Shown here in pieces: positions 41,338 to 42,925 of a stretch of 43,016 nucleotides of DNA. The notes under the pieces were generated by a model, which ran no database searches, was not told the DNA's origin, and saw only the letters and a list, made by a program, of their open reading frames with translations. The DNA is taken from IMG/VR virus record IMGVR_UViG_3300002026_000066, positions 1-43,016 of that record, one strand, 5' to 3'. A program made the position numbers and the translations under genes. This stretch comes from a virus. The stretch's first letter is position 1. The number at the start of each line of letters is the position of its first letter.

Positions 41338-41396
41338 TCAGCCTGTTCAAACTGGATTGAAAGCAGTAAGCTGTATATTCACATCAAAGTGATGCT

Positions 41397-41597
41397 ATGA
41401 AACATGTAAACGAACCGAAGCCAGACACCCCCATGCTTGAAGCGATGAAAACGTTTCAGGTTGGCGTTGGTGCGGCTGGTTCACGCATGATGGCGGCCTT
41501 GATTGAGAAGCAAAAAAACTTTGAAATCACAAAAGAGAAAATAAAAAATGACATTCAGCGAGGAAGTCGGCAATCCAGAGGATCAATTCCTCACTGA
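41397..41597 (+). CDS. Small ORF at the start of the low-GC island (may instead be the frameshifted 5' end of the next gene)
   Basis: 66-aa ORF that overlaps the next ORF by 50 nt across an A-rich run (ataaaaaatg). No clear ribosome-binding site. Confidence 0.3.
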   Translation: MKHVNEPKPDTPMLEAMKTFQVGVGAAGSRMMAALIEKQKNFEITKEKIKNDIQRGSRQSRGSIPH

Positions 41598-42384
41598 TTT
41601 TTTGTACGTTGAGCGCCAGCGCTTGGCCTCATACACCGCACAGTTGTTTCCTGATGGAAATTTAACTTCCATGAAGAAGGTCAGTGGACTGACCGAGCAA
41701 AGCGCGATGAAGTTCGGTGGCGGTGTGCCGAAACTACTTAACGCAGACCATACATCAACCGATACAGCAGTTAATTCAATTGAACACAGTTTTGATGCGA
41801 ACTGGTCATCAATTATTGACGCGTTGTCGGAGATAAATGCCAAAGGATTCGTAAAAGAATTCAGTGAAAGTGTGGCGATAGGTCAAATTATTCACTTCAA
41901 AGGCAACATCAACATAATGGATTTTAGGTTGCTTCAGAAATTGTGGCGACCTGTGATGAAGGGCGAGATAAGCAAGATGCCCGCTCATACCAAGCCCCAA
42001 CAAGTGGCGAAAAAGGCTCAAGAGTCGGCTGTCGCTTCAATGGTTGATGTTATTGAATTGATGCCGCATTTGATTCAGTTGAGTGCATTTAATTCAAAAT
42101 ATTCACTATGGTGCACGTTGAACTCTGAATGCATGGCAATTGATCCTGCCGATCTTGCATTCAAGTATGGCCCTAGTATTGATGGCGAATGGAGTGTGAT
42201 TGCGGTAATTGACGCCTGGCCATTTAATGACGATAACCACCAGATAAATTATCCTCCCGGATTGGGTGATATTCAGAATGCATTACTTCAAATGGCAGTG
42301 CAAATAAGAATTGGGTTTGGCAGACCTCTGAATTCGTATGGCATAACGCCGCTTGCGATTTACAGGACACTGAAAAACAGTTGA
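41548..42384 (+). CDS. Unknown 278-aa protein encoded in the low-GC island (candidate defence/exclusion gene)
   Basis: Long ORF in AT-rich DNA with no recognised catalytic motif. The N-terminal DFLYVERQRLASYTAQLF and C-terminal ITPLAIYR recall an uncharacterised DUF-type family, which I cannot verify. Confidence 0.6.
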   Translation: MTFSEEVGNPEDQFLTDFLYVERQRLASYTAQLFPDGNLTSMKKVSGLTEQSAMKFGGGVPKLLNADHTSTDTAVNSIEHSFDANWSSIIDALSEINAKGFVKEFSESVAIGQIIHFKGNINIMDFRLLQKLWRPVMKGEISKMPAHTKPQQVAKKAQESAVASMVDVIELMPHLIQLSAFNSKYSLWCTLNSECMAIDPADLAFKYGPSIDGEWSVIAVIDAWPFNDDNHQINYPPGLGDIQNALLQMAVQIRIGFGRPLNSYGITPLAIYRTLKNS

Positions 42385-42470
42385 TTCAAGCGATTATTTT
42401 CTTAGTGATCATCGCCTGAGACGGAGACACTTTGGAGCCCGAATTGCTTCGATAAACAGGGAGGTTTTGT

Positions 42471-42737
42471 ATGAAGTTGCTACTCGCCGCTGCGGGATTG
42501 CTTTTGGTTGTTGGTTGCTCGTCTCCGTATCAGGCGCAACCACCGTCCTACATGGTCAACATTGCTGAAGAGCGGGCTGAATTGACCGCCAACCGCAGTG
42601 ATTTGGCTTCAAAACGCAATCGGCTTTCAAACTCGAAAGTCAAAGCAGAAATCGAGGCACTAGAGGCCGAGATTGCAGAACTGGAGAAGCGGATTGCAGG
42701 AAGATGTGCTGACGGTGATGATGTGGGCGCTGGATGA
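42471..42737 (+). CDS. Small coiled-coil lipoprotein (88 aa)
   Basis: AGGGAGG ribosome-binding site 7 nt upstream. The signal peptide MKLLLAAAGLLLVVGC carries a lipobox (VVG|C). The mature part is a heptad-like coiled coil (KVKAEIEALEAEIAELEKRI). Confidence 0.7.
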   Translation: MKLLLAAAGLLLVVGCSSPYQAQPPSYMVNIAEERAELTANRSDLASKRNRLSNSKVKAEIEALEAEIAELEKRIAGRCADGDDVGAG

Positions 42738-42925
42738 GAAGGCGTGCACGCCTGAGTGAACCGCTGAATACCCCAAGCTCAATACGGGGTGTTCAGCAAA
42801 CAGGCCTACCGCAACCCCACACAAACCGATGCAAAATCGGTAGCCAACAAACCAATACAACAAAGCGCCAAGCTTGCATTTAGCCCCCTTTTTTTGAGCT
42901 GAAAACACATTCATGATGCCTCTCA

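What the first reader, a model, noticed from the sequence alone, without database searches (positions are those of the whole stretch)
41338..42925. Low-GC three-gene island inserted between the head-morphogenesis and capsid genes
- **Composition:** Hand counts of several 60-nt lines give roughly 35-50% G+C here, against about 55-70% in the flanking structural genes. The change is abrupt at the stop codon of the 40990-41337 gene, and backbone composition returns just before the capsid start.
- **Contents:** a 66-aa ORF; a 278-aa protein with no motif I can assign; and, behind a strong ribosome-binding site, an 88-aa lipoprotein with a clean lipobox and a coiled-coil body.
- **Interpretation:** A foreign cassette at this position in a late operon is the classic layout of a phage accessory gene. 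Phage lipoproteins such as Cor and Llp act in superinfection exclusion. A cytoplasmic unknown protein paired with an envelope lipoprotein could be a new exclusion or abortive-infection system.
- **Open point:** The 66-aa and 278-aa ORFs overlap by 50 nt across an A-run. They may be one gene split by a frameshift.
Basis: partly seen in the sequence, partly recalled or inferred. Interest (0 to 1): 0.75.

Follow-up and report, generated by a model that had tools for sequence, protein, structure and literature searches.

The report
Mobile two-gene DUF6414 cassette in phage
A temperate phage carries a 1.1-kb foreign insert between its head genes: two overlapping genes (a tiny single-helix protein and a DUF6414 protein) that travel together through prophages of many bacteria and are a plausible but untested new anti-phage or toxin-antitoxin module, while the neighbouring lipoprotein gene is a separate, older passenger.

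Summary
The low-GC stretch is real, but it is two units rather than one three-gene cassette.

**Unit 1, 41338-42446 (1109 bp, GC 0.44 against 0.62 for the genome).** Three related phage contigs run straight from the stop codon of the 115-aa gene to the lipoprotein ribosome-binding site, with only about 5 nt between. This unit is therefore a clean insertion. It holds a 66-aa single-helix protein and a 278-aa protein, overlapping by 50 nt. The overlap is not a frameshift artefact: all 16 loci examined, from five phyla, have the same small ORF overlapping the large gene.

**The 278-aa protein.**
- It is full-length phrog_9699 and a divergent member of Pfam DUF6414, the family of DolA of the Dodola defence system.
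- It fails the DolA model and has no ClpB-like partner.
- Its predicted fold matches nothing solved.

**Where the pair occurs.** It sits behind cI-like repressors, beside an integrase, between tail chaperone and tape-measure genes, and alone in a Psychrobacter chromosome.

**Unit 2, the 88-aa lipoprotein.** It is resident in this phage lineage and 3'-truncated (relatives have 124-125 aa plus a nuclease gene).

**The site.** It is a cargo hotspot, and one relative carries a PD-T4-10_B homologue there.

**Function.** A defence or toxin-antitoxin-like role is inferred, not shown.

The parts
40990..41337 (+). 115-aa lineage-conserved gene. It is the left anchor of the hotspot and is not part of the insert.
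   Evidence: Backbone GC 0.61. Homologues in L014 (80% aa identity), L015, L016, L019 and L020, always just upstream of variable cargo. No family hit.
41338..42446 (+). 1109-bp inserted module (GC 0.437). It is absent from related phages, where about 5 nt (CATCT) occupy this place.
   Evidence: blastn and MAFFT junctions against L014, L015 and L016. Composition.
41397..41597 (+). Small ORF of 66 aa. It is a charged protein predicted as one long helix, and is the conserved upstream partner of the DUF6414 gene.
   Evidence: - Present in 16 of 16 loci.
- 37% identical to the L008 partner, E 1e-12.
- Aligns with few, short gaps across clades.
- Chance openness combined is about 1e-20.
- AF2 helix 11-61, pLDDT 82.
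41548..41597 (+). 50-nt overlap. The start codon of the large gene is embedded in the small ORF (+1 frame), with a purine-rich, Shine-Dalgarno-like stretch just upstream of the start codon (before the overlap itself).
   Evidence: Same 50-nt overlap in L008, L011 and L013. The overlap is 38 nt in the Moraxellaceae, Bordetella and Klebsiella clade. The frame offset is +1 in 15 of 16 loci.
41548..42384 (+). 278-aa protein, a divergent member of the DUF6414 family (phrog_9699). It is cytoplasmic and has no recognised fold.
   Evidence: - phrog_9699 E 1.3e-52, full length.
- Homologues hit PF19952 above threshold.
- 1345 cluster representatives.
- AF2 pLDDT 79, pTM 0.73.
- Foldseek found no match at E<=0.001 (best E 0.03).
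42447..42737 (+). Resident lipoprotein gene with its ribosome-binding site (CDS 42471-42737, 88 aa). It has a lipobox LVVG|C and a coiled-coil body, and is truncated at its 3' end.
   Evidence: 75-78% DNA identity to L014, L015 and L016 from 42444/42455 to 42699. Relatives P0112 and P0113 are 124-125 aa, with an overlapping SNase gene downstream. No remnant of these remains in the window.
42700..42812 (.). Window-specific junction. It covers the last 12 codons of the truncated lipoprotein plus a spacer.
   Evidence: No homology to any relative on either side.
42813..42952 (+). Conserved region upstream of the capsid gene. This is the right anchor of the hotspot.
   Evidence: 91-92% identity in L017, L018 and L019, starting at 42813/42822.
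42953..43016 (+). Start of the 903-aa protease-scaffold-capsid fusion gene. It continues at 27-2738 through the 91-nt terminal overlap.

Best explanation
**Shown.**
- This temperate phage has a cargo hotspot between a conserved 115-aa gene and the capsid gene.
- A 1.1-kb AT-rich mobile module has been inserted into that hotspot.
- The module is a translationally coupled gene pair: a roughly 60-aa single-helix, charged protein, and a roughly 280-aa DUF6414-family protein whose start codon lies inside the small gene, with its ribosome-binding site just upstream.
- The pair moves as a unit between prophages and chromosomes of at least five phyla.
- The adjacent 88-aa lipoprotein gene is an older, independent passenger of the same hotspot, and is now truncated.

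**Inferred.**
- The pair is a host-benefit or addiction module of the toxin-antitoxin or abortive-infection type.
- It is expressed in the lysogen. In four unrelated prophages it sits directly behind the cI-like repressor, where lambda carries rexAB.
- The DUF6414 protein would be the effector or sensor.
- The co-translated small helix would be its stoichiometric inhibitor or regulator, so that infection or loss of the small partner releases DUF6414 activity and blocks phage production.
- The biochemical activity of DUF6414 is unknown.
For: **Insertion and hotspot.**
- Junction mapping against relatives.
- Hotspot cargo in relatives: a PD-T4-10_B homologue (PADLOC E 2.7e-42), an HSDR_N protein, antirepressors and a transposase. 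A Tad2-like gene lies between portal and MuF in L014.

**The pair is a conserved unit.**
- 16 of 16 loci have the small ORF overlapping the large gene.
- Shine-Dalgarno sequences precede both genes.
- The small proteins align across clades.
- The small ORF being open by chance has a combined probability of about 1e-20.

**The module is mobile.**
- Its GC is below that of the flanks in six of the seven loci measured; L008, on a short contig, is equivocal.
- Positions found:
  - behind the repressor in Bordetella IFTN4, Nitratiruptor NrS-3, Clostridium HM T and a Klebsiella lambdoid prophage;
  - near the integrase in IFTN2;
  - between tail chaperone or tube and tape-measure genes in Moraxella, Acinetobacter and an IMG/VR contig, in one case alongside HicAB and HigBA;
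  - a stand-alone islet between mipA and fumC in Psychrobacter.

**Family link to defence.**
- Homologues match Pfam DUF6414 over their full length.
- So does experimentally validated DolA of Dodola, at E 1e-21 and 4e-29.

**The window copy looks functional.** It keeps all family-invariant residues.
Against: - There are no functional data.
- The window protein itself gets no Pfam or PADLOC hit.
- Family profiles do not align significantly with DolA.
- PADLOC's DolA model, which scores true DolA at 1e-76, hits none of about 100 members.
- No fold match suggests an activity.
- No promoter or terminator above shuffle expectation flanks the module in the window, so lysogenic expression here is unproven.
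- The small protein has no recognisable DNA-binding fold typical of type II antitoxins.
- Conservation of its C-terminus is confounded by the overlapping start region of the large gene.
Confidence: 0.5

Rival explanations
1. One reading: one three-gene cassette in which the cytoplasmic 278-aa protein works with the envelope lipoprotein as an exclusion or abortive-infection system.
For: The genes are adjacent, on the same strand, and all below backbone GC. Phage lipoproteins can exclude phages (general knowledge: Cor, Llp).
Against: - The lipoprotein occurs without the module in L014-L016, and the module occurs without any lipoprotein in 15 other loci.
- The two units differ in composition (0.44 against 0.52).
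- The insertion junction lies between them.
- The lipoprotein is a truncated copy.
Confidence: 0.04
2. The 66-aa and 278-aa ORFs are one gene split by a sequencing or mutational frameshift in the A-run, or are joined by programmed frameshifting.
For: There is a 50-nt overlap across an A-rich stretch, and the frame relation (+1) is the same in 15 of 16 loci.
Against: - The 278-aa protein is full length relative to phrog_9699 and to all homologues.
- The large gene has its own ATG or GTG in every locus with a defined start, usually preceded by a Shine-Dalgarno sequence.
- None of 150 listed family representatives carries the small protein as an N-terminal extension.
- The split is present in 16 independent assemblies.
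- A +1 shift lacks a recognisable slippery or stop-codon context (read).
Confidence: 0.03
3. A purely selfish toxin-antitoxin (addiction) pair that stabilises whatever element carries it, with no anti-phage role.
For: - A small upstream gene overlaps a larger downstream one.
- The module is AT-rich and mobile.
- A stand-alone chromosomal islet exists.
- It is a neighbour of HicAB and HigBA in a Moraxella prophage.
Against: - The repeated placement behind prophage repressors and in defence-laden hotspots favours a role against other phages.
- Many toxin-antitoxin systems do both, so the two readings overlap.
- The small protein has no antitoxin-type DNA-binding domain.
Confidence: 0.2
4. A phage-benefit factor (anti-defence or host take-over) expressed during lytic growth from the late operon.
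For: In the window and in the tail-module sites it lies inside late operons with no evident promoter or terminator of its own. A relative carries a Tad2-like anti-Thoeris gene nearby.
Against: - It occurs as an islet among housekeeping genes in Psychrobacter, where an anti-defence gene has no use.
- It sits behind repressors in the lysogenic transcription unit.
- It is dispensable in close relatives.
Confidence: 0.1
5. A virion or assembly accessory (decoration, chaperone) of the head or tail.
For: It lies between structural genes in the window and in the Moraxellaceae prophages.
Against: - It is absent from the closest relatives with the same head genes.
- It is found beside repressors and an integrase and outside prophages.
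- It has no structural-protein family or fold hit.
Confidence: 0.03

Closest known systems
Dodola defence system (DolA = DUF6414 protein, DolB = ClpB-like ATPase; Millman et al. 2022)
   Same: - Homologues of the 278-aa protein and validated DolA both match Pfam DUF6414 over its whole length and above threshold.
- Sizes are similar (256-280 aa).
- Both are two-gene units.
- The mechanism is unknown for both.
   Different: - There is no ClpB-like partner. The partner is a 50-70-aa single helix encoded upstream and overlapping.
- PADLOC's DolA model and direct profile comparisons do not link the two branches.
- This branch is mostly prophage-borne in Proteobacteria, whereas the Dodola systems whose DolA sequences were retrieved here come from Bacillus.
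Lambda rexAB and other passengers of prophage immunity regions
   Same: In four prophages the pair lies directly downstream of the cI-like repressor and is co-oriented with it. It is a two-gene unit with a component of about 280 aa.
   Different: - No sequence or fold similarity to RexA or RexB.
- The small partner has no transmembrane segment.
- In the window the pair lies in the head operon, not in the immunity region.
Type II toxin-antitoxin or abortive-infection pairs (for example HipBA-like layouts, and PD-T4-10 with overlapping genes)
   Same: A small upstream gene is translationally coupled to a larger downstream gene. The unit is mobile, AT-rich and found in prophage hotspots.
   Different: No homology to any PADLOC, Pfam or NCBIfam toxin-antitoxin or Abi model. 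The small protein lacks an RHH, HTH or AbrB-type fold. Toxicity is untested.
Phage morons (Juhala et al. 2000 concept)
   Same: A discrete insert between conserved late genes, with atypical composition, absent from relatives.
   Different: The classic moron has its own promoter and terminator. None stands out here above shuffle expectation.
Cor, Llp and Lpp-type small outer-membrane lipoproteins (for the 88-aa gene)
   Same: Signal peptide plus lipobox, small size, coiled-coil body. There is a weak sub-threshold hit to the Lpp/OprI alanine-zipper family, E 0.019.
   Different: No significant homology to any of them. Only two relatives were found in 5.8 billion proteins, and both are longer and coupled to a nuclease gene.

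Membership tests
Pfam DUF6414 (PF19952) | The protein itself scores above the gathering threshold (25 bits). | tested here: not met
   No Pfam hit at E<=0.1 for the window protein.
Pfam DUF6414 (PF19952) | Clear homologues score above threshold over the full length (transitive membership). | tested here: met
   - P0002 and P0003 (43-48% identical) reach 37-38 bits.
- IFTN4, Mcat13 and NrS-3 reach 43-57 bits over almost the whole 283-position profile.
- 68 of 92 distant members hit the model.
- NCBI names relatives 'DUF6414 family protein'.
PHROG 9699 | Full-length profile match. | tested here: met
   E 1.3e-52, residues 10-276 on profile positions 6-269 of 270.
Dodola system | Match to the DolA model. 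| tested here: not met
   No PADLOC DolA hit for the window protein or for about 100 relatives. As a positive control, true DolA scores 1e-76. hhalign and hmmsearch against DolA are not significant.
Dodola system | An adjacent ClpB-like DolB gene. | tested here: not met
   No annotated or Pfam-scanned neighbour is a ClpB- or AAA-type gene in any of the 16 loci; in L011-L013 only selected neighbouring ORFs were scanned.
Dodola system | Protects cells from phage. | not testable with these tools
   Needs cloning and a phage challenge.
Type II toxin-antitoxin module | A small gene and a larger gene in one operon with overlapping or coupled translation. | tested here: met
   14-50-nt overlap in 16 of 16 loci. 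The start codon of the large gene lies inside the small ORF, with its Shine-Dalgarno sequence just upstream.
Type II toxin-antitoxin module | The antitoxin has a DNA-binding fold, and the toxin belongs to a known toxin family. | tested here: not met
   The small protein is a single helix. There is no toxin-family hit.
Type II toxin-antitoxin module | The large protein is toxic and the small one neutralises it. | not testable with these tools
   Needs an expression experiment.
Phage moron | Absent at the same site in close relatives, with atypical composition. | tested here: met
Phage moron | Its own promoter and terminator. | tested here: inconclusive
   3 promoter-like and 5 terminator-like sites, against 2.2 and 3.1 expected. 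None flanks the module.
RexAB-type exclusion | Homology to RexA or RexB, and a membrane partner. | tested here: not met
   No Pfam hit, no PDB fold hit, and no hydrophobic segment in either protein.
Bacterial lipoprotein (88-aa ORF) | N-terminal signal peptide ending in a lipobox [LVI][ASTVI][GAS]C. | tested here: met
   MKLLLAAAGLLLVVG|C is read directly and is conserved in P0112 and P0113.
Cor or Llp superinfection-exclusion lipoproteins | Sequence homology. | tested here: not met
   Only coiled-coil noise in Pfam, PHROGs and NCBIfam.

The most novel reading that the evidence does not exclude
The single-helix protein plus DUF6414 pair is a previously undescribed, widespread anti-phage system: at least 1345 clusters at 50% identity, across Proteobacteria, Campylobacterota, Firmicutes and Acidobacteriota.
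- It would be a minimal relative of Dodola in which a co-translated peptide of about 60 aa replaces the ClpB-like ATPase as regulator.
- A bolder version concerns the conserved Ser/Thr/Gly-rich segment at residues 39-82. It is predicted with low confidence as a hairpin with two strands of about 17 residues each. It could be a membrane-inserting or oligomerising stem, which would make DUF6414 proteins, including DolA, a new class of effector.
Probability: 0.3. Interest if true: 0.7.

Novelty: new variant of a known kind. Interest (0 to 1): 0.5.

Why it matters
- DUF6414 is known only as the uncharacterised DolA subunit of Dodola.
- This branch shows the domain working with a very different, tiny partner. 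It also occupies classic prophage 'immunity passenger' positions in several phyla.
- That gives a compact 1.1-kb, two-gene unit in which to test what DUF6414 does.
- The analysis also maps a precise cargo hotspot (115-aa gene to capsid gene) in a group of temperate phages. The hotspot could be mined for further defence and counter-defence genes.
- If the pair gives no phenotype, it is simply one more moron of unknown function.

Tried and rejected
- **Family searches on the three ORFs.** Pfam, NCBIfam and PADLOC gave nothing significant for the three ORFs themselves.
- **Structure searches.** A PDB sequence-profile search found nothing. Foldseek of the AF2 model against PDB and BFVD gave only weak OB-fold-like noise, with best E 0.03 and TM <=0.24.
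- **Direct link to DolA.** hhalign and hmmsearch gave negative scores. The link rests only on the shared Pfam model.
- **Tai and Tab tail-assembly defences.** I considered them because of the tail-module sites. There is no homology: phage phi80 is not among the tblastn hits.
- **Repeats at the ends of the insert.** No inverted repeats and only chance-level short direct repeats, so there is no transposon-like signature.
- **Other features.** No Rfam family, no tRNA, and no convincing promoter or terminator.
- **Searches that returned little.**
  - A genome-wide locus scan with the broad alignment failed for lack of conserved stretches.
  - The narrower alignment returned only 2 genomes and 1 viral contig.
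  - The plasmid collection gave one hit, which is really a Klebsiella chromosome.
- **Nuclease remnant.** I looked for remains of the relatives' SNase gene or of the lipoprotein C-terminus in the window and found none.
- **Amphipathic pattern in the predicted hairpin.** It is only partly alternating, so it is not strong enough to claim a pore-forming stem.
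Full report
**1. The observation**

The window is a circular phage contig with a 91-nt terminal overlap (1-91 = 42926-43016). The gene that starts at 42953 is therefore the 903-aa protease-scaffold-capsid fusion at 27-2738.

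The gene order upstream of the finding is as follows:

| Coordinates | Gene |
|---|---|
| 36290-37888 | large terminase |
| 37774-39315 | portal |
| 39312-40757 | MuF-like head-morphogenesis protein |
| 40762-40971 | 69-aa DUF4926 protein |
| 40990-41337 | 115-aa gene |

The phage is temperate. It has two integrases, an Ant antirepressor and a tape-measure gene.

The composition figures are:
- GC in 200-nt windows is 0.58-0.72 upstream, 0.42-0.48 across 41400-42400, and 0.51-0.53 from 42400 to 43000.
- GC3 of the 278-aa gene is 0.38, against about 0.8 in the portal, MuF and capsid genes.

**2. The island is composite**

Three related phage contigs (L014, L015, L016) were found through homologues of the lipoprotein.
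- They are collinear with the window up to 41337, the stop codon of the 115-aa gene.
- Homology resumes at 42444-42455, just before the lipoprotein ribosome-binding site.
- In L015 and L016 the sequence reads GGGGTAG-CATCT-TTGCTTCGATAAACAGGGAGG...ATG. The window has 1109 bp (41338-42446) in place of CATCT.

So the small ORF plus the 278-aa gene is a clean insertion, and the lipoprotein gene belongs to the lineage.

The window's lipoprotein is a truncated copy.
- Homology ends at 42699.
- Relatives encode 124-125 aa with an extra C-terminal Cys-rich basic tail, followed by an overlapping SNase gene.
- No remnant of either is left in the window.

Homology with other relatives (L017, L018, L019) starts again at 42813, upstream of the capsid gene.

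**3. The site is a hotspot**

Between the 115-aa gene and the capsid gene, relatives carry quite different cargo:

| Relative | Cargo at this site |
|---|---|
| L014 | lipoprotein, SNase, a PD-T4-10_B homologue (PADLOC E 2.7e-42), Arc/RHH regulators and an antirepressor |
| L017, L019 | PAPS-reductase-like and other ORFs |
| L020 | an HSDR_N-domain protein, Arc-like and KilA-N/Bro-like genes |
| Microcystis phage vB_MaeS-yong1 | about 4 kb including a DDE transposase |

**4. The two-gene module**

*The large protein.*
- The 278-aa protein matches phrog_9699 end to end (E 1.3e-52).
- tblastn finds homologues at 24-34% identity in 17 phage records: Bordetella avium, Moraxella catarrhalis, Nitratiruptor, Clostridium and Acinetobacter phages.
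- A profile search gives 110 clusters at 90% identity, mostly from Moraxellaceae.
- A full HMMER scan of 1.84 billion representatives gives 1345 hits at E<=1e-3, all single-domain proteins of about 250-357 aa.

*The small partner.* In every locus examined (16 of 16) a 48-69-aa ORF lies upstream and overlaps the start of the large gene.
- The overlap is 50 nt in the window, L008, L011 (Acidovorax) and L013.
- It is 38 nt in the Moraxellaceae, Bordetella and Klebsiella copies.
- The frame offset is +1 in 15 of 16 loci.
- Most small ORFs have a good Shine-Dalgarno sequence.
- The large gene's own ATG or GTG lies inside the small ORF, usually preceded by a Shine-Dalgarno sequence.
- The small proteins align with only a few short gaps, with a shared ...K+..I..DI+RG[AS]R... 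end. Part of that conservation is confounded by the overlap.
- The chance that such an ORF is open is 0.005-0.26 per locus and about 1e-20 combined.
- AF2 predicts the 66-aa protein as one long helix (residues 11-61, pLDDT 82).

*The frameshift idea.* No family member carries the small protein as an N-terminal fusion, and the large protein aligns from its N-terminus with all homologues. The 'split gene' idea is rejected.

**5. Mobility and context**

The module's GC is below that of both flanks in five of the six other loci measured; L008 is the exception. It occurs in the following positions:

| Position | Examples |
|---|---|
| Directly behind a cI-like repressor, co-oriented | Bordetella IFTN4, Nitratiruptor NrS-3, Clostridium HM T, a Klebsiella lambdoid prophage (where the large gene is split) |
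| About 0.6 kb downstream of the integrase gene | IFTN2 |
| Between tail chaperone or tube and tape-measure genes | Moraxella, Acinetobacter, an IMG/VR contig |
| Between head genes | the window |
| Stand-alone islet between mipA and fumC | Psychrobacter chromosome |

This distribution excludes a virion role. It also argues against a purely phage-benefit factor.

**6. Relation to known systems**

The window protein itself gets no Pfam hit. Its homologues do:
- P0002, P0003, and the IFTN4, Mcat13, NrS-3 and HM T proteins match DUF6414 (PF19952) above threshold; IFTN4, Mcat13 and HM T do so over the full length, NrS-3 nearly so, and P0002/P0003 over about two-thirds of the profile.
- 68 of 92 distant members also match it.

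A review assigns DUF6414 to Dodola. I retrieved the two DolA sequences from the supplement of Millman et al. 2022 and tested them.
- They match DUF6414 at 1e-21 and 4e-29.
- They match PADLOC's DolA model at about 1e-76.
- No member of the present family hits the DolA model.
- hhalign and hmmsearch between the two branches are not significant.
- No locus has a ClpB-like neighbour.

The module is therefore a distant DUF6414 branch with a new partner. It is not a Dodola system.

On structure, the AF2 model (pLDDT 79, pTM 0.73) has no Foldseek match in PDB or BFVD. Residues 39-82 are predicted with low confidence as a long hairpin, rich in Ser/Thr/Gly and with partly alternating hydrophobicity.

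**7. Mechanism**

*Shown.* A mobile, translationally coupled pair has been inserted into a cargo hotspot.

*Inferred.* It is a lysogen-expressed module of the toxin-antitoxin or abortive-infection type. DUF6414 would be the effector and the small helix its co-translated regulator.

*Main rivals.* A purely selfish addiction module, or a phage-benefit factor.

*The lipoprotein.* Its function is unknown. It is not linked to the module.

**8. Verdict**

It is a new architectural variant around a known but uncharacterised domain. Interest is moderate, because the function is untested and candidate defence morons are common.

Noticed in passing
window 40403-40971: The MuF-like head protein carries an extra C-terminal DUF6883 domain (E 5e-27) and is followed by a 69-aa DUF4926 gene. 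Relatives L014 and L019 lose similarity at 40402 and lack this C-terminal extension and the DUF4926 gene, and GC drops to 0.58 there. The layout resembles the MuF-fused polymorphic toxin plus immunity pairs described for temperate phages (recalled from memory, not tested).
   Followed up: partly
L014 1937-2416 and 4708-5691: A close relative carries a Tad2-like (anti-Thoeris) gene between portal and MuF. In the same hotspot as the finding it carries a 327-aa homologue of PD-T4-10_B (PADLOC E 2.7e-42).
   Followed up: partly
window 1-91 and 42926-43016: An exact 91-nt terminal direct overlap, so the contig is circular or terminally redundant. The unique length is 42925 bp.
   Followed up: yes
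window 13000-15000: A second GC trough (0.53-0.58) lies over a 511-aa virion structural protein gene (13320-14855; phrog_19943). It is possibly an exchanged receptor-binding module.
   Followed up: no
window 29569-30690 and 31472-33094: The genome has two recombinases, a tyrosine integrase and a 540-aa large serine recombinase.
   Followed up: no
L014 3902-4691; L015 333-1119: In relatives the lipoprotein is 124-125 aa with the C-terminal motif THRGPRGGCYTITKSGKKNYGGC. Its gene overlaps a thermonuclease (SNase) gene by 14 nt, which suggests a lipoprotein-nuclease pair that the window has lost.
   Followed up: partly
L014 6239-7634 and L015 1150-1862 versus window 33589-35124: In relatives the Arc and antirepressor region lies just downstream of the hotspot. 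In the window the homologous DNA lies upstream of the terminase genes, so the gene order differs between these phages.
   Followed up: no
L023 6971-7806 (Klebsiella pneumoniae CP125156.1): The DUF6414 gene behind the cI-like repressor is annotated as two ORFs (6971-7483 and 7465-7806) and is probably a frameshifted pseudogene. The record is labelled a plasmid but is 5.37 Mb long.
   Followed up: no
OM293953.1 and OM293954.1 (Bordetella phages IFTN4 and IFTN5): tblastn reports two matching places per record, so these phages may carry two DUF6414 paralogues.
   Followed up: no
window 27-90 / 42953-43016: The annotated N-terminus of the capsid fusion (MLKKRLVSLAASAVALVESCA) looks like a signal peptide. 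That is odd for a capsid protein, so the true start may lie downstream. L020 aligns only from residue 30.
   Followed up: no
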